Assembly: GCF_004324835.1 (NCBI RefSeq)
Contig: NW_021163311.1
Coordinates: 10,208 to 74,207 of the forward strand
DNA: 64,000 nt
Reading direction: 5' to 3'
DNA from: Dendronephthya gigantea
Taxonomy: Eukaryota
Position 1 is the first letter of the stretch; each line of letters opens with the position of its first letter. Of this stretch, positions 10,790 to 48,032 are shown piece after piece. The position numbers were made by a program, and so were the translations under genes. The notes under the pieces were generated by a model. The model did no database searches. It was not told the origin of the DNA and was given only the letters and a program-made list of their open reading frames with translations.

Positions 10790-11050
10790 TGCTCACAGAT
10801 TGTTTTGTAATTTCACGTTTTCCATCGCGTCCTTGAAGGCTTTTAGTACAAGATTTACATTATCTTTTGTACTGTTCAACCCCATCAGACCAACACGCCA
10901 TATCTGAAAAATTTCACCACAAAAAGTAGGGTTTTTCAAAGGGAAAAAATTTACGATTATGGAGTGAATATCTGCGAATATAGAGAAGAAAATTGTGAAT
11001 ATGAATACCTTTCCAGCAGAGCTTCCAAGAACACCTGAAATATCCATTTT
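10790..11050 (-). pseudogene. AGXT: Co-amplified copy of AGXT exons 9-10 and the intron between them (coding still intact)
   Basis: Minus strand encodes YKMDISG(V)LG(S)SAGK | IWRVGLMGLNSTKDNVNLVLKAFKDAMENVKLQNNL*, matching the genuine AGXT 3' exons at 33039-33292. Confidence 0.6.
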
Positions 11051-11129: not shown

Positions 11130-12065
11130 TTGGCAAGATAGGGCAAGATAGAAGAAAACACAAGAAAAGTAAGAAATAGACCAAGTGGTGATAAGGAAAA
11201 TATAATTGTTGCTGGAGGTTTAGGAATTAACTCTGTAGAGATGTTTAACTGGCGTCAAAGAACATGGTCGCCATTACAATCAATGCCAAAGGATCGTGAA
11301 GGAGCGACTTCATTTATTTATAACAATCATATGACTATAGCTGGGGGTGACTGTGGTGGGTCTGACATTGTTGATGATATGATTAGAATGAATATTGACC
11401 CAAACCCTGATCTCTCAACACACTGGAGTGGCTGTCCTGTTAAACTACCTGATAAGTTGAGATTCCACAGCAGTGTGCTGTATAATGATCAGTTGATAGT
11501 CTCTGGAGGTGAAAAGAGAAAAGTTTCATCTGACTTGATCAGAGCAGTCCAGCTTGTTCCTCCCTATACTGCGAAGACCTTATCAAGAATGCCAGAACCA
11601 AGACAAGGTCACAGCATGGAAATATTTGATGATAATTTGTTGATAGTTGGTGGAAAAACAACTGACACTCTCAAAGACAACCTCAGCAGTGTCGTACTGT
11701 ATGATGTAAAGAAGAATGAGCTGAAACAGTTGTCACCACTCCCGTATGAAGTGAGTCACATGGCAACTGTGAGATGGGGAGACAACATTGTTGTTATTGG
11801 TGGAATTGACAAACAATGCAAGACATTAGATACAGTTGTCATTTACAATGTCAAGACAGAACAAAGTCACATGCTGCCATCAATGAGATTTAAGAGGTGG
11901 GGATGTACTGCAGTTGTTATTGAAAACAACATTGTAGTCCTGGGAGGGTATGGTGAGGTAGGAAAGCTGAAGTCAGTTGAAGGTTTCAACTTTGAAAGGT
12001 TATCTTGGGAAGAACTTCCAGAAATGTCTAAATCAAGATGGTGGCCCACTGCTGTTGCTGTGTGA
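11130..12065 (+). pseudogene. 5'-truncated RING-TRAF-Kelch copy 3 (Kelch half only)
   Basis: Homology begins mid-gene at ..gaagaaaacacaagaaaagtaagaaatagaccaagtggtgataaggaaaat.., which encodes ..EENTRKVRNRPSGDKENIIVAGG. The spacer hairpin sequence ..gccactattggcaag is fused directly to the gene at the shared ggcaag (microhomology deletion). The RING and TRAF parts are absent. Confidence 0.8.
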
Positions 12066-12756: not shown

Positions 12757-13012
12757 TCACAGATTGTTTTGTAATTTCACGTTTTCCATCGCGTCCTTGA
12801 AGGCTTTTAGTACAAGATTTACATTATCTTTTGTACTGTTCAACCCCATCAAACCAACACGTCATATCTGAAACATTTCACCACAAAAAGTAAGGCTTTT
12901 CACCGGGAAAAATTTACGATTATAGAGCGAATATCTGCGAATATGGAGAAGAAAATTGTGAATATGGATACCTTTCAAGCAGATCTTCCAAGACCACCTG
13001 AATTATCCATTT
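12757..13012 (-). pseudogene. AGXT: AGXT exon 9-10 derived fragment, copy B (nonsense mutation)
   Basis: The exon-10-like segment reads cag|ATA TGA CGT. TGG has become TGA within IWRVGL. Confidence 0.55.
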
Positions 13013-15443: not shown

Positions 15444-17074
15444 ATGGCTTCATATATACAAGGCTACGATGAAGAACGCTTCGAGACCAAAGTCAGTAAA
15501 AATTTCCTTTGTCAGATTTGCTTCAACGTCTTGAAAGAGCCTGTCCTGTGTCCGACAAACCAACATTGTTTTTGCCGTTGTTGTATTACGAAACATCTGG
15601 AAAATTCTCAAACATGTCCAACGTGTGCTGATGAACTGACCGTAGAGACTTTGGGCGAACCCCAAAGAATTGTAAAAGATCTTATAAACGAGTTAAAAAT
15701 TCGTTGCGTTTACATCGACAGAGGTTGTCAAGAGTTGTGGAATTACAGCATCTTGACCGCCATGAAGATACATGTGGATACACACCAGCCGTTTGTACAA
15801 ACCAAGGCTGTGGTTTAATTGTCAACAAGCGTGATCTTATTCACCATGAAAGTGAAGTCTGTGAATTCCGAAAGTTGAAGTGTCACTCGTGCGGAGAAAT
15901 GACGAAAACTTTGGCAGATATGGAGGAAAAAATGGCGAAGAATAATGTAAATATTGAAACTAAAATAACAAATTTAGAGAAAAACGTTGCTACTTTTGCG
16001 AATGATATGGAGAAAAACACCGCAGATATAAAAGCAGATATAAAAGCAGATATGGAAGGAAAACTCGAAGCGGTTAACAACGAAGTCAAAGGATTGAAAA
16101 CAGCTTTGGTCAAAGCTTTTGATGAAATGAAGGACGTTCTTATCACGATGGAGGGCAAGAAAGAAGAAAACACAAGAAAAGTAAGAAATAGACCAAGTGG
16201 TGATAAGGAAAATATAATTGTTGCTGGAGATGTAGCAACTAACTCTGTAGAGATATTTAACTGGCGCCAAAGAACATGGTCGCCATTACAATCAATGCCA
16301 GAGGATCGTTATGGAGCAACTTCATTTACTTATAACAATCATATGACTATAGCTGGGGGTGGCTGTGGTTGGCCTGGCATTGTTGATGATATAATTAGAA
16401 TGAATATTGACCCAAACCCTGATCTCTCAACACACTGGAGTGACTGTCCTGTTAAACTACCTGATAAGTTGAGATACCACAGCAGTGTGCTGTATAATGA
16501 TGAGTTGATACTCTCTGGAGGTGATAATGGAAATGTTTCATCTGACTTGATCAGATCAGTCCAGCTTGTTCCTCCCTATACTGTGAAGACCTTATCAAGA
16601 ATGCCAGAACCGAGACAAGGTCACAGCATGGAAATATTTGATGATAATTTGTTGACAGTTGGTGGAAGTAAAACTGACAGTTACACAGACAACCTCAGCA
16701 GTGTCGTACTGTACGATATAAAGAAGAATGAGCTAAAACAGTTGTCACCACTGCCGTATGAAGTGAGTGCTATGGCAACTGTGAGATGGGGAGACAACCT
16801 TGTTGTTATTGGTGGCGTTGACAAACATGGCAAGACATTAGATACAGTTATCATTTACAATGTCAAGACAAAACAAAGTCACATGCTGCCATCAATGAGA
16901 TGTAAGAGGAGAGGATGCACTGCAGTTGTTATTGAAAACAACATTGTAGTCCTGGGAGGATCTGGTGCAGGAGAACTGAAGTCAGTTGAAGGTTTCAACT
17001 TTGAAAGGTATTCTTGGGAAAAACTTCCAGAAATGTCTAAAGCAAGATGGCGGCACACTGCTGTTGTTGTGTGA
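15444..17074 (+). pseudogene. RING-TRAF-Kelch copy 4, disrupted by a 1-nt deletion (true pseudogene or homopolymer assembly error)
   Basis: caagagttgtggaattacagc here against caagaggttgtggaattacagc in gene 5. The ORF splits into 15444-15818 and 15704-17074. The 5' flank and N-terminal half are otherwise identical to gene 5. Confidence 0.6.
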
Positions 17075-17707: not shown

Positions 17708-17968
17708 TCACAGATTGTTTTGTAATTTCACGTTTTCCATGGCATCCTTGAAGGCTTTTAGTACAAGATTTACATTATCTTTTGTACTGTTCAACCCCAT
17801 CAGACCAACACGCCATATCTGAAAAATTTCACCACAAAAAGTAGGTTTTTCAAGGGAAAAAATTTACGATTATGGAGTGAATATCTGCGAATATGAGAAG
17901 AAAATTGTGAATATGATACCTTTCCAGCAGATTTCCAAGACCACCTGAAATATCCATTTTATATCTGA
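17708..17968 (-). pseudogene. AGXT: AGXT exon 9-10 derived fragment, copy C (frameshift in the exon-9-like part)
   Basis: cagcagatttccaagacc against cagcagatcttccaagacc in the real exon 9. The exon-10-like part is intact. Confidence 0.55.
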
Positions 17969-22234: not shown

Positions 22235-22430
22235 ACAAAACAGACCAACACGCCATATCTGAAAAATTTCACGACAAAAAGTACAGTTTTTCACAGGGAA
22301 AAAATTTACGATTATGGAGCGAATATCTGCGAATATGGAGAAGAAAATTGTGAATATGGATACCTTTCCAGCAGATCTTCCAAGACCACCTGAAATATCC
22401 ATTTTATATCTGAAAAAAAATTTGATTATT
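22235..22430 (-). pseudogene. AGXT: AGXT-derived fragment, copy D (exon 9 retained, exon 10 mostly deleted)
   Basis: ..aacaataacaaa|acagaccaacacgccatatctgaaaaatttcac.. The 3' UTR of gene 5 is joined inside the exon-10-like segment. The exon-9-like part reads MDISGGLGRSAGK. Confidence 0.5.
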
Positions 22431-24515: not shown

Positions 24516-24829
24516 CTTTGATTTGCTAAAATTTAATCTTCTAGCTTGAAATGGCTTTTCATCGATATAATGACCGCACTTATACAGGATGTTTAAAAAA
24601 ACGCAACACTTAATATTTATGAATATTTTGATACGCTATACGATCTTTTGTGATCAAAACGAAAGTTAATTTCATAAACACTTTGAAGTTGCGTTTTTCT
24701 TATTCACCACAGCTGTAGATCAATCCACAAGATATCCTAAACCATTTGTGTGTTGATGAAAACTGATTTAGATTGGAATATTATTCCACCGCGAAAATAT
24801 TCAACTTGACTTAGACAGAGTAAAATACT

Positions 24830-25375
24830 AAAGTAGGTCACATCTGTGTGCATTGCAAGCTAATGGGTTAACAAGAGACACTGACAGATAGTTTTGTTAA
24901 CTTATTAACTGACAGTACTCTTCCACTGATGAGTAAAATCATCTGACATTAGACAGAGTAAAATACTAAAGTAGGTCACAACTGGGTGCATTGCAAGCTA
25001 ATGGGTTAACAAGAGACACTGACAGATAGTTTTGTTAACTTATTATCTGACAGTACTCTTCCACTGATGAGTAAAATCATCTGACATTAGACAGAGTAAA
25101 ATACTAAAGTAGGTCACATCTGGGTGCATTGCAAGCTAATGGGTTAACAAGAGACATTGACAGATAGTTTTGTTAACTTATTAACTGACAGTACTCTTCC
25201 ACTGATGAGTAAATTCATCTGACATTAGACAGAGTAAAATACTAAAGTAGGCCACATCTGGGTGCATTGCAAGCTAATGGGTTAACAAGAGACACTGACA
25301 GATAGTTTTGTTAACTTATTAACTGACAGTACTCTTCCACTGATGAGTAAAATCATCTGACACGATTAGGAAAAA
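24830..25375. repeat. 136-bp satellite, 4 tandem monomers, upstream of gene 6
   Basis: Unit is gacagatagttttgttaacttattaactgacagtactcttccactgatgagtaaaatcatctgacattagacagagtaaaatactaaagtaggtcacatctgggtgcattgcaagctaatgggttaacaagagacact. Confidence 0.85.
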
Positions 25376-33038: not shown

Positions 33039-39971
<6,933 letters not shown>

Positions 39972-40067
39972 TTTATAATTTTATTGTTGATTGTGCGAGA
40001 ATCTGAGAGAAGTCTTTGAAACTTTGAAATTTGAATATTTACAAATAATCCAACACGTGGACTTAGG

Positions 40068-40212
40068 ACCGGAAGTCTTGCACCGGAAGTCTTGCACCGG
40101 AAGTCTTGTACTGAACGTCATGTACCGGAGGTCTTGTACCGGAGGACTTGTACCGGAGGTCTTGTACCGGAGGTCATGTACCGGAGGTCTTATACCGGAA
40201 GTCTTGTACCGA
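40068..40212. promoter_or_regulatory. Tandem array of ten 14-bp units carrying ETS-family consensus sites (ACCGGAAGT / ACCGGAGGT), ~100-240 bp upstream of the AGXT start codon
   Basis: accggaagtcttgc x3, one degenerate unit (ctgaacgtcatgta), accggaggtcttgt x5, accggaagtcttgt. The AGXT ATG is at 39971 on the minus strand. Confidence 0.6.
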
Positions 40213-40624
40213 AAAATACGTCACAAAGTAGCAAAATGTTGCAAAATGTCATCACATTGCAGGTACATTTATAGATCAGTCGTTAGACTAGTGCACTGAT
40301 CTCGATGATGGAACTGGATATGGATCACTGATCGCTGTTAAACTGGATAGCTCTACTTGTTTCACCATAATTTGAATGAATTTGAATTCCAATCTGAATA
40401 GTGCAATATTATATGAAAATATTTTTACGATAAGCTTATAAATTTTGCAACCAACTAAAGTAACTCCAAGTCTCCAACCTTCGAGCTATTAAAGAAAATA
40501 ATTCACCCTTTTACTGCGTGATTAATATAAATAGCTTTAAATAGAATTAATTCTAGAAAATAAATCGTCATCACTTATTATTTATTGGCTTTGTGCACTA
40601 CAGATAAACTAATCAGCTAATGGC

Positions 40625-40880
40625 ATGTCAATAGACCTTTCCCCTTTTAGCTTTCAAGTGCGCAATGCGTGACGGTGGTTGATTATCAAGGTCAATTTGA
40701 GTTCTGACCCCCCCCCCATGTTCAGGAGTTCATGTTTAGTTTAACAAAGAAACAAAAAGAATTAGCAAGGTCTTCTTACAAATAAAATCGCTTCAAAGCA
40801 GAACAAATGCAACTCAAAGTCCCTTGATAATCAACTCACCCATCGCCGCGCTTAAAAGGGGAAAAGTCTATTGCACAATT
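40625..40880. repeat. Imperfect inverted repeat (~60-bp arms, ~130-bp loop containing a C10 tract); possible MITE relic
   Basis: gtcaatagacctttccccttttagc..ggttgattatcaagg pairs with cccttgataatcaactcacc..gcttaaaaggggaaaagtctattgcac. Confidence 0.45.
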
Positions 40881-40998: not shown

Positions 40999-41433
40999 TT
41001 ACAGTTCATCTTTTACTGCATTATCGTAGAAGAACGTTTCTCCACATTTTTTGCAATATTCGTATGGCACTGTTACTTCTTTCCCTCCATCAAATTGCAT
41101 TTTGACTGGCTCTTTAGCAGGGATCTTCTCGTGATTGCCGTTCGGGCAAGGTGTTATGCTTTCGACTTTGTATGAATCTGGCGTGAATACCACTCTCTTG
41201 TGTTTTACCTCTTGAACGAAACTTTTGTATCTTTTTCTCACTCTCTTTATCCCCAGAATAGGTTTGACCACTTTCAGTACAGGTTTAACCACTTTTTTGA
41301 TAACTCTTTCTACTGGTCTAGTTACATGTCGAATAACCCTTTTCAGACCTCTTAAAATACCAGAAACCTCGACTGTAGAAGACAGTAGAACTACACCGAT
41401 AAGGCCAAAAGCTAGCAAAGTCGCTTTTCTCAT
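40999..41433 (-). CDS. A0: diverged paralogue of cassette gene A; secreted, strongly cationic, C-terminal KDEL
   Basis: MRKATLLAFGLIGVVLLSSTVEV signal. It shares HVTRP, RV.K.Y..F..EVKH.RVVF.P.SY.VE.I.PC..G.H and YCKKCGE.FF with the A copies. It ends ..FFYDNAVKDEL*. Confidence 0.65.
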   Translation of the reverse strand: MRKATLLAFGLIGVVLLSSTVEVSGILRGLKRVIRHVTRPVERVIKKVVKPVLKVVKPILGIKRVRKRYKSFVQEVKHKRVVFTPDSYKVESITPCPNGNHEKIPAKEPVKMQFDGGKEVTVPYEYCKKCGETFFYDNAVKDEL

Positions 41434-43625: not shown

Positions 43626-43892
43626 TGCTTATGTTCACCGCTAGCTGTGGTTCACTGAGGTGTTTGCGTCAGAAACAGCGCGATCGTCAGCTATAGAATG
43701 GTCGTTGAACTCTTGAATTTATCTCGTTAATAACTCCGTATCTAAACAACAATCTCAACTTAACTTAAAGCTGTAGAGCCCCTGTCAATGCATCAATGCA
43801 TCAATGCGTCAGTCAGTGCCCTGCAGCCCCACGTGAATGTCAGAATACCCATTTGACAATTTTCCGAGTATTGACATTCCTTGGAGTTAATT

Positions 43893-47761: not shown

Positions 47762-48032
47762 TGCTTATGTTCACCGCTAGCTGTGGTTCACTGAGGTGTT
47801 TGCGTCAGAAACAGCGCGATCGTCAGCTATAGAATGGTCGTTGAACTCTTTGAATTTATCTCGTTAATAACTCCGTATCTAAACAACAATCTCAACTTAA
47901 CTTAAAGCTGTAGAGCCCCTGTCAATGCATCAATGCATCAATGCGTCAGTCAGTGCCCCTGCAGCCCCTCACGTGAATGTCAGAATACCCATTTGACAAT
48001 TTTCCGAGTATTGACATTCCTTGGAGTTAATT

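What the first reader, a model, noticed from the sequence alone, without database searches (positions are those of the whole stretch)
40068..40212. Ten tandem ETS-consensus motifs directly upstream of AGXT
A 14-bp minisatellite whose unit contains the canonical ETS and GABP site ACCGGAAGT, or ACCGGAGGT, lies within 100-240 bp of the AGXT start codon. The local AGXT leader is only ~100 bp long. A satellite built from a transcription-factor consensus at a promoter is unusual. It could act as a copy-number-tunable enhancer or an ETS sink.
Basis: partly seen in the sequence, partly recalled or inferred. Interest (0 to 1): 0.6.

Follow-up and report, generated by a model that had tools for sequence, protein, structure and literature searches.

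The report
Amplified ETS-site array, AGXT promoter
A transcription-factor (ETS) binding site that related animals carry once to three times just upstream of the AGXT enzyme gene has been copied head-to-tail about ten times in this genome, a clear but fairly ordinary case of a promoter element turned into a small repeat array.

Summary
The array is real: 40068-40211, 14-bp unit, 10.3 copies, 97-240 bp upstream of the ATG of a minus-strand AGXT gene. Only four units carry the canonical ACCGGAAGT. Five carry a GGAG core, which ETS domains should bind poorly, and one is decayed.

The key result comes from orthologous AGXT promoters recovered from invertebrate-host contigs. They share a block ACTTCCGGT, 8-10 nt, CACGTG, then TTCAAAGA, then the ATG, with one to three ETS sites. 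In one relative these sites already form a 17-bp x2.4 repeat. The window array is therefore a lineage-specific tandem amplification of an ancestral, conserved ETS site next to a conserved E-box. It is not a transposon, is not coding, and no 14-bp-spaced copy turned up elsewhere in the window or the related loci.

It probably acts as the ETS-responsive, possibly initiating, part of a TATA-less promoter. Nothing shows that the extra copies are selected. The locus is full of tandem duplications, and the gene itself has a 6-aa deletion and duplicated exons 2-3.

The "ETS sink" idea has no support and is unlikely with 4-9 sites. The TSS, factor binding and copy-number polymorphism are all untested.

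Side lead: 13-14-bp-phased ACCGGAAGT arrays recur at 27 loci in another metazoan's contigs.

The parts
40068..40211 (-). 14-bp tandem array, 10.3 units. It reads ACAAGAC(T/C)TCCGGT in the AGXT sense and lies at -97..-240 from the ATG.
   Evidence: TRF; motif counts; unit table
40068..40109 (-). Three proximal perfect units (ACCGGAAGTCTTGC/C/T). These are canonical class-I ETS sites and the best candidates for the functional, possibly initiating, sites.
   Evidence: same position as the conserved ACTTCCGGT of the orthologues in alignment A1
40110..40123 (-). Decayed unit (ACTGAACGTCATGT). It carries an upstream ATG at -150 in the AGXT sense.
40124..40193 (-). Five contiguous GGAG-core units (ACCGGAGGT x4, ACCGGAGGA x1), predicted to be poor ETS sites. 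One carries an upstream ATG at -206.
   Evidence: core requirement from PMC5062964
40194..40221 (-). Distal canonical unit (ACCGGAAGTCTTGT) followed by a partial unit (ACCGAAAAATACGT) that ends the array.
40054..40059 (.). E-box CACGTG, 8 nt from the first ETS unit, at -83..-88. Conserved as AAGTCCACGTGT in the orthologues.
40014..40036 (-). Conserved TTCAAAGA block, itself triplicated here (CTTTGAAA x2.9), between the E-box and the ATG.
   Evidence: TRF; alignment A1
39643..39971 (-). AGXT exon 1 (ATG at 39971-39969, donor G|GTATGA). It carries an in-frame 18-nt (6-aa) deletion relative to all 14 orthologous loci and to solved AGXT structures.
33042..39971 (-). Whole AGXT gene: 10 exons, all with GT-AG sites, and introns filled with 138-, 80-, 77- and 114-bp satellites. 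Exons 2-3 are duplicated.
40294..40348 (-). Two copies of a second conserved promoter module, ATCCAG-N(10-13)-GATCAGTG. They hold the only two GATCAGTG in the window.
40268..40273 (-). TATAAA at -302 in the AGXT sense, distal to the array and not conserved in the orthologues. It marks an alternative TSS scenario.
40999..41433 (-). Upstream neighbour, a 144-aa secreted-type protein gene in the same orientation as AGXT. It bounds the AGXT intergenic/promoter region to 1.03 kb. The same neighbour lies upstream of AGXT in L002.

Best explanation
The array is a lineage-specific tandem amplification, by replication slippage or unequal exchange, of the ancestral class-I ETS binding site of the AGXT proximal promoter.

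In the ancestor the promoter held one to three ACTTCCGGT sites 8-10 nt upstream of an E-box (CACGTG), followed by a TTCAAAGA block and the ATG. In this genome the ETS site with a 5-nt spacer became a 14-bp unit that grew to about 10 copies.

Inferred mechanism: the GGAA units, above all the three perfect proximal ones, bind a class-I ETS activator (GABPalpha, ELK or ETS1 type). Together with the bHLH-ZIP factor on the adjacent E-box they drive, and perhaps position, initiation of a TATA-less promoter within about 140 nt of the ATG.

The extra copies make a homotypic cluster whose strength could change with copy number. Whether they add function or are neutral passengers is not shown. The five GGAG units are probably weak or inert for ETS proteins.

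Shown: the array, its position, the gene identity, the conservation of the ETS + E-box block, and the absence of the array in relatives. Inferred: the origin by amplification, ETS binding, the TSS position and any dosage effect.
For: The array and motif excess are real.

The orthologous promoters share ACTTCCGGT, AAGTCCACGTGT, TTCAAAGA and then the ATG, in otherwise barely alignable DNA (alignment A1). Among the orthologues, blastn aligns only this 41-131-nt block.

The number of ETS sites varies between relatives: L004 has 1, L001 has 1 plus decayed copies, L002 has 2 plus CTCCGGT. In L002 the sites are already a 17-bp x2.4 tandem repeat.

No 14-bp-spaced ETS pair occurs in any of the 14 related loci or elsewhere in the window. 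The array is therefore local and derived.

Synteny with L002 (the same upstream gene in the same orientation) makes the 1.03-kb spacer the AGXT promoter.

There is no upstream ATG between -149 and -1, while the array units at -150 and -206 carry ATGs. This fits a TSS at or below the three proximal GGAA units.

Precedents: tandem GABP sites can initiate transcription on their own (PMC2077898), and duplication of a native ETS motif activates the TERT promoter through GABP (PMC9481613).

The locus is extremely prone to tandem duplication at every scale (111 TRF rows; a 1011-bp exon duplication).
Against: There are no expression, TSS or binding data.

Within the array, substitutions are as frequent in the 9-nt motif (8/90) as in the spacer (5/50). 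Individual units therefore show no sign of purifying selection.

Half of the units have a GGAG core, which should abolish specific ETS binding (PMC5062964).

Neighbouring sites are 14 bp apart, which is 1.33 helical turns. That is out of phase for the GABP heterotetramer, which prefers whole turns (PMC9481613). Only every third unit (42 bp, 4 turns) is in phase.

Some orthologues (L008, L009/L010, L012-14) have neither an ETS site nor an E-box, so the element is dispensable in some lineages.

The AGXT copy carries a 6-aa deletion and a frame-breaking exon 2-3 duplication, so constraint on its promoter may be relaxed.
Confidence: 0.6

Rival explanations
1. Neutral slippage product in a decaying or relaxed locus. 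Only the ancestral one to three sites ever mattered, or the gene itself is on its way to being a pseudogene. On this view the 10-copy array is functionally inert repeat DNA of the kind that fills this region.
For: The window has 111 tandem-repeat rows, including another 19-bp x10.5 minisatellite and four satellites inside AGXT introns. The neighbouring conserved TTCAAAGA block is also triplicated. The motif and the spacer diverge equally within the array. One unit is dead and five have a non-ETS core. AGXT has a unique 6-aa deletion in a conserved segment. It also has a 100%-identical duplication of exons 2+3 (166 nt, not a multiple of 3) that would break the frame if all four exons were spliced in.
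Against: All ten exons keep open frames and GT-AG sites. The three units nearest the E-box are perfect consensus sites in the conserved position. The exon duplication is 100% identical and flanked by satellite monomers, so it may be very recent or an assembly artefact.
Confidence: 0.27
2. The unit is the site of a factor other than an ETS protein. That factor would tolerate or prefer ACCGGAGGTC (or its complement GACCTCCGGT), and the resemblance to the ETS consensus would be partial.
For: GGAG is the majority core (5 of 10 units). A distal CTCCGGT is also present in the L001 and L002 promoters, in the same distal position relative to the GGAA sites.
Against: The element conserved across six lineages is the full 9-mer ACTTCCGGT, the class-I ETS optimum. 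No alternative factor could be named from the sequence. The five GGAG units are contiguous, as expected if one variant spread by slippage.
Confidence: 0.07
3. The array is transcribed as part of a long 5'UTR starting near the TATAAA at -302. It would then act at the RNA level, for example through its two upstream ORFs, and not as a DNA-binding platform.
For: There is a consensus TATAAA at -302, distal to the array. Upstream ATGs at -206 (19 codons) and -150 (46 codons, ending just before the main ATG) lie in the array. In the JAAUXT01 loci, arrays lie 3-40 nt from start codons, so such arrays can sit at or inside the start of transcripts.
Against: The TATAAA is not conserved in any orthologue, whereas the ETS/E-box block downstream of it is. 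Six upstream ATGs would burden such a leader.
Confidence: 0.05
4. ETS 'sink': the array titrates ETS factors away from other targets.
For: None beyond the presence of several sites.
Against: The array offers only 4 consensus and 5 doubtful sites, in a genome that must hold thousands of ETS sites. This last point is established knowledge of metazoan promoters and was not tested here.
Confidence: 0.01

Closest known systems
Tandem duplications of the native ETS motif in the human TERT core promoter (PMC9481613)
   Same: A short wild-type promoter segment containing an ETS motif (CCGGAA), about 100 bp from the ATG, is duplicated head-to-tail. The added site recruits GABP and activates the promoter.
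   Different: The TERT event is somatic, occurs in tumours, and is a single 22-bp duplication (2 helical turns) that is strictly phase-dependent. The array here is germline, has a 14-bp unit (1.33 turns) in about 10 copies, has half its copies core-mutated, and has no functional data.
GABP/NRF-2 tandem-site promoters and GABP-dependent initiators (PMC2077898 and the work it cites)
   Same: Consensus CCGGAAGT sites in tandem sit close to the start of a TATA-less promoter. Such sites can initiate transcription without other elements.
   Different: The typical case has two sites, is often in a bidirectional promoter, and has whole-turn spacing. Here there are ten units and no divergent gene.
GGAA microsatellites used as EWS-FLI1 response elements (PMC2654724)
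   Same: A tandem array built from the ETS core acts, in that system, as a repeat-number-dependent response element.
   Different: That repeat has a 4-bp unit without the flanks of a full site and is exploited by a neomorphic fusion protein. Here each unit is a complete 9-bp class-I site with a 5-nt spacer.
Promoter minisatellites/VNTRs that modulate expression (PMC3899988, PMC4857002)
   Same: A short tandem repeat lies inside a promoter and has the potential for copy-number-dependent expression.
   Different: Most described cases are not built from a phylogenetically conserved factor site. Polymorphism and an expression effect are not shown here.
13-14-bp-phased ACCGGAAGT arrays in JAAUXT01 metazoan contigs
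   Same: The 9-mer is the same and the period is the same (14 bp, also 13 bp). The arrays have 3-10 units and often lie directly upstream of a start codon.
   Different: They come from a different animal (GC about 0.5-0.58). The motif points towards the ATG, whereas it points away in the window. The arrays lie 3-40 nt from the ATG. Spacers differ between loci and often within an array.

Membership tests
Class-I ETS/GABP binding site | Central GGA(A/T) core | tested here: inconclusive
   Met in 4 units (u1-3, u10). Not met in 5 (GGAG) or in the decayed unit. Core requirement from PMC5062964.
Class-I ETS/GABP binding site | Flanks of the class-I optimum, A-CC-GGAA-GT | tested here: met
   ACCGGAAGT is exact in 4 units. 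The same 9-mer is conserved in the orthologous promoters.
Class-I ETS/GABP binding site | Bound by an ETS-domain protein of the organism | not testable with these tools
   No binding data are available. The organism is inferred to be a metazoan from the animal-type AGXT, the RING-TRAF-Kelch genes and relatives on Tara Pacific and invertebrate-host contigs. That all metazoans encode ETS factors is established knowledge, not tested here.
GABP heterotetramer paired sites | Two sites in helical phase (multiples of about 10.5 bp) | tested here: inconclusive
   Neighbouring sites are 14 bp apart, or 1.33 turns, which is out of phase. Units i and i+3 are 42 bp apart, or 4.0 turns, which is in phase. 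Rule from PMC9481613.
Minisatellite / VNTR | Head-to-tail copies of a unit of roughly 10-60 bp | tested here: met
   TRF gives period 14, 10.3 copies, 87% matches and no indels.
Minisatellite / VNTR | Copy number variable in the population | not testable with these tools
   An exact look-up of the window's exon-1 product found no other assembly of this species.
Conserved proximal promoter element | Retained at the same position in orthologous promoters | tested here: met
   ACTTCCGGT next to CACGTG is present in the window, L001, L002/3 and L004, and with other spacings in L005/6 and L011. It is absent in L007 (E-box only), L008, L009/10 and L012-14.
Conserved proximal promoter element | Lies upstream of, or at, the transcription start | not testable with these tools
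   No transcript data are available. Indirect evidence: no upstream ATG between -149 and -1.
Transposable element / dispersed repeat family | Further copies elsewhere; terminal repeats or target duplications | tested here: not met
   There is no other match to the 14-mer in the window with up to 3 mismatches and none in the 14 related loci. The flanks are the conserved promoter blocks.
GGAA microsatellite (EWS-FLI1 type) | Contiguous GGAA tetranucleotide repeats | tested here: not met
   The unit is 14 bp with one GGAA or GGAG per unit.
AGXT (class-V aminotransferase, alanine-glyoxylate/serine-pyruvate) | Aminotran_5 domain, the PLP-lysine motif SGSQK, and full-length similarity to solved AGXT/HKT | tested here: met
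   Pfam 3e-35. PDB 2ch1 at 1.7e-118 and 1h0c at 1.8e-115 over residues 3-375. The product has an unusual 6-aa gap.

The most novel reading that the evidence does not exclude
Arrays of the full class-I ETS site phased at 13-14 bp may be a recurrent, selected promoter or initiator architecture of some marine invertebrates. They would arise independently at many genes by amplification of a single site, and the AGXT array would be one young instance of it. Their copy number would set promoter strength.

Support so far.
- In one other metazoan (JAAUXT01 contigs), 27 loci carry at least 3 perfect ACCGGAAGT sites at a 14-bp period.
- The spacers differ between loci and, in 8 of the 27, strongly within the array while the 27 motif bases stay perfect.
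- In clusters that were not selected by the search pattern, 10 of 12 spacings are 13 or 14 bp.
- Several arrays end 3-40 nt before a plausible start codon.
- Three 14-bp units equal exactly four helical turns.
Probability: 0.2. Interest if true: 0.6.

Novelty: new member of a known kind. Interest (0 to 1): 0.38.

Why it matters
If the reading is right, this is a clean natural example of how a promoter gains a homotypic cluster of factor sites. The ancestral state (1-3 sites), an intermediate (17-bp x2.4 in a relative) and the expanded state (14-bp x10) can all be seen in orthologous promoters. It parallels in the germline what tumours do at the TERT promoter. It also offers a simple system for testing how ETS-site number, core quality (GGAA against GGAG) and 14-bp phasing translate into promoter output. 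The wider lead, that 13-14-bp-phased ETS arrays recur in another animal, would matter more if a genome-wide survey confirmed it.

Tried and rejected
(1) Transposon or dispersed repeat: rejected. There are no other copies in the window or in the related loci.

(2) Coding repeat: rejected. The + strand ORF 39991-40299 runs through the array, but a 14-bp period is not a multiple of 3. No homologue was sought because the region is a conserved promoter.

(3) Bidirectional promoter with a divergent gene: rejected. The upstream neighbour is co-oriented with AGXT, and the same neighbour is found in L002. After the array the + strand offers only a 12-codon ORF.

(4) Finding the same species elsewhere to see copy-number variation: failed. 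The exact look-up was not on record, and the best relative is only 86% identical in exon 1.

(5) Identifying the organisms: failed. Rfam and tRNA scans of the window found nothing. The accession strings JAAUXT, ERZ... and SRR... are not in the paper library.

(6) Transcript evidence from Logan contigs: none. All hits are genomic, with exon 1 read through into the intron.

(7) Literature on 13-14-bp ETS phasing: nothing found in the library searched.

(8) The bacterial promoter/terminator scanner was not used because this is a eukaryotic locus.

Full report
OBSERVATION

The window is eukaryotic DNA with 37% G+C and spliced genes.

Tandem Repeats Finder reports an array at 40068-40211 with period 14, 10.3 copies, 87% matches and no indels. 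The consensus is ACCGGAGGTCTTGT. The 9-mer ACCGGARGT occurs nine times in 64 kb and eight of these are in the array. The expectation is 0.34, and none of 100 shuffles reaches nine. The 14-mer has no other match in the window even with three mismatches.

Read unit by unit:
- The three units nearest the gene and the tenth unit are the canonical ACCGGAAGT.
- Units 5-9 have a GGAG core (ACCGGAGGT four times, ACCGGAGGA once).
- Unit 4 is decayed (ACTGAACGT).
- An eleventh partial unit ends the array.

So the object is real and far beyond chance, but "ten ETS-consensus motifs" should read "four consensus, five core variants, one dead".

THE GENE

On the minus strand an ORF starts at 39971. The exons I assembled from the minus strand give a 382-aa product. 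It matches Pfam Aminotran_5 (3e-35) and aligns end to end with mosquito 3-hydroxykynurenine transaminase and human AGXT structures (E = 2e-118 and 2e-115). All ten exons have GT-AG boundaries. The array lies at -97 to -240 from the ATG, and an E-box (CACGTG, 40054-40059) sits 8 nt from the first unit.

The next gene upstream (40999-41433) has the same orientation as AGXT. The same gene also precedes AGXT in a relative (tblastx 1e-33). The 1.03-kb spacer is therefore AGXT's own upstream region, and there is no divergent partner gene.

ORTHOLOGOUS PROMOTERS (THE DECISIVE EVIDENCE)

A protein search with exon 1 returned exon-level products at 71-86% identity, on long contigs from invertebrate-host and reef metagenome assemblies, including Tara Pacific scaffolds.

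In the AGXT sense, the four closest lineages (window, L001, L002/L003, L004) share this block: ACTTCCGGT, then 8-10 nt, then AAGTCCACGTGT, then about 20 nt, then TTCAAAGA, then the ATG (alignment A1). Among the orthologues this block is almost the only upstream DNA that blastn can align. Two more distant lineages (L005/6, L011) keep ACTTCCGGT and CACGTG with other spacings. L007 keeps only the E-box. L008, L009/10 and L012-14 have neither.

The number of ETS sites varies:
- L004 has one.
- L001 has one plus a decayed copy and a distal CTCCGGT.
- L002 has two plus CTCCGGT, and there TRF already calls a 17-bp x2.4 tandem repeat.

None of the 14 related loci has two ETS sites 14 bp apart. The window array is therefore a derived, lineage-specific tandem amplification of an ancestral, conserved ETS site that forms a composite element with an E-box.

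The order of variants is the same as in L001 and L002, with GGAG types distal and GGAA types next to the E-box. Either both ancestral site types were amplified, or a single A-to-G variant spread through five contiguous units by slippage.

HOW IT PROBABLY WORKS

ETS domains recognise about 10 bp around GGA(A/T), and changing that core yields a nonspecific site (PMC5062964). The four GGAA units are therefore the credible ETS sites, and the GGAG units are doubtful.

Tandem GABP sites can initiate transcription without other elements (PMC2077898). A tandem duplication of the native ETS motif about 100 bp from the ATG activates the human TERT promoter by recruiting a GABP tetramer (PMC9481613).

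My best reading is therefore as follows. The three perfect proximal units, together with the E-box, form the ETS-responsive and possibly initiating core of a TATA-less promoter. The remaining units add sites of lower or no affinity.

One observation is weakly consistent with a start at or below these units: the AGXT-sense strand has no ATG from -149 to -1, while units at -150 and -206 carry ATGs.

On spacing, 14 bp is 1.33 helical turns, which is out of phase for a GABP tetramer, while every third unit (42 bp, four turns) is in phase. This is arithmetic and inference, not a test.

REASONS FOR CAUTION

- Substitutions within the array are as frequent in the motif (8/90) as in the spacer (5/50). 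Individual copies therefore show no sign of selection.
- The locus duplicates at every scale. There are 111 TRF rows in the window. The conserved TTCAAAGA block is itself triplicated. Four satellites lie inside AGXT introns. The flanking genes form multi-kb arrays.
- The AGXT copy is odd. It has an in-frame 6-aa deletion in a segment present in all 14 orthologous loci and in solved structures.
- It also has a 100%-identical tandem duplication, at a 1011-bp offset, that contains exons 2 and 3. Together these exons are 166 nt, so splicing in all four would break the frame. This may be recent, tolerated by exon skipping, or an assembly artefact.
- A consensus TATAAA at -302, not conserved in relatives, leaves open that the array is transcribed.
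- TSS, binding and polymorphism could not be tested. No other assembly of this species is on record.

RIVALS

A neutral slippage product, possibly in a gene under relaxed constraint, is the main rival (about 0.27). A non-ETS factor that prefers the GGAG form, an RNA-level role in a long leader, and an "ETS sink" are minor. A sink of 4-9 sites is implausible. A transposon, a coding repeat and a bidirectional promoter were examined and rejected.

COMPARISON WITH WHAT IS KNOWN

In kind, the array resembles the TERT promoter ETS duplications, GABP tandem-site initiators, promoter VNTRs (PMC3899988, PMC4857002) and, more loosely, the GGAA microsatellites used by EWS-FLI1 (PMC2654724).

It meets the definition of a minisatellite and of a conserved promoter element. 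It meets the ETS-site definition only in four units. It is not a GGAA microsatellite or a dispersed repeat. I file it as a new member of a known kind: a factor site amplified in tandem within its own promoter.

SIDE LEAD

I scanned metagenome contigs for three ACCGGARGT sites at a 14-bp period and found 49 loci.

About 20 of these are perfect tandem repeats on mostly high-G+C contigs that look bacterial. I take them to be chance minisatellites.

The other 27 come from one WGS project (JAAUXT01). Its contigs encode Bicaudal-D and a rhodopsin-type receptor, so the source is an animal. In these contigs:
- ACCGGAAGT occurs 143 times in 214 kb, against about 6.5 expected.
- The spacers differ between loci.
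- In 8 of 27 arrays at least 2 of the 5 spacer bases differ between neighbouring units, while all 27 motif bases are perfect.
- Several arrays end 3-40 nt before a plausible start codon, including a signal peptide, NCS-type EF-hand genes and a FAD oxidoreductase.
- In clusters not selected by my pattern, 10 of 12 spacings are 13 or 14 bp.

I found no description of such phasing in the paper library. This suggests, but does not prove, that 13-14-bp-phased ETS arrays are a recurrent promoter architecture in some invertebrates. The AGXT array would then be a young example.

VERDICT

The array is best explained as an amplified ancestral ETS promoter site. The function of the extra copies is unproven. 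Interest is moderate (0.38).

Noticed in passing
L015-L058 (27 JAAUXT01 loci), e.g. L027:8767-8802, L015:2133-2168, L049:859-894, L054 and L016 for independent clusters: Another metazoan (its contigs encode BicD and a 7tm_1 receptor) carries many arrays of ACCGGAAGT phased at 13-14 bp. The spacers differ between loci, and the arrays often lie 3-40 nt upstream of a start codon. In clusters not selected by the search pattern, 10 of 12 spacings are 13-14 bp. The organism was not identified.
   Followed up: partly
window 36860-39190 (copies offset by 1011 bp); exons at 38727-38791 and 38534-38634, and again at 37716-37780 and 37523-37623: AGXT exons 2 and 3 lie in a ~1.3-kb, 100%-identical tandem duplication flanked by 138-bp satellite monomers. 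Exon 2 plus exon 3 is 166 nt, so including both copies would shift the frame. This could be a recent unequal exchange or an assembly artefact.
   Followed up: partly
window ~39770-39790 (exon 1, after codons ...YVWQ): There is an in-frame 18-nt (6-aa) deletion relative to all 14 orthologous loci and to solved AGXT/HKT structures. It lies just before the SG(T/S)GH segment.
   Followed up: partly
window 40294-40348; L001 4640-4870; L002 4750-4905: A second conserved AGXT-promoter module, ATCCAG-N(10-13)-GATCAGTG, is repeated 2x in the window, about 5x in L001 and about 3x in L002. The window's only two GATCAGTG are both here. No factor is known for it.
   Followed up: partly
window 47922-47975 (and the paralogous 43785-43835, 52077-52130, 56349-56402): Another promoter-proximal micro-array has the same layout: TCAATGCA x3.4, then CACGTG, about 60 nt before the ATG of a small secreted-protein gene, in each of four tandem gene copies. 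CACGTG is enriched in the window (25 against 7.3 expected, partly through the gene duplications). It lies 50-90 nt upstream of several start codons.
   Followed up: partly
window 10796-10897, 12760-12861, 17711-17812, 22361-22402 (minus strand): Orphan copies of the last two AGXT exons are embedded in the ~5-kb tandem array of intronless RING-TRAF-Kelch genes. The AGXT 3' end was evidently carried along by the segmental duplications.
   Followed up: no
window 2958-32442: At least six tandem paralogues of a ~540-aa intronless RING + TRAF-type zinc finger + Kelch propeller protein are present. Some are truncated or frame-broken (11241-12065, 15444-17074).
   Followed up: no
window 40629-40649 / 40853-40873: A 21-nt inverted repeat (95% complementary, arms 203 nt apart) lies in the AGXT upstream spacer. 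It looks like a MITE.
   Followed up: no
window 36694-39509 and 24807-25362: The 138-bp satellite that fills AGXT intron 1 also occurs about 12 kb away, between RING-TRAF-Kelch genes. Other AGXT introns hold 80-bp, 77-bp (13.8 copies) and 114-bp satellites.
   Followed up: no
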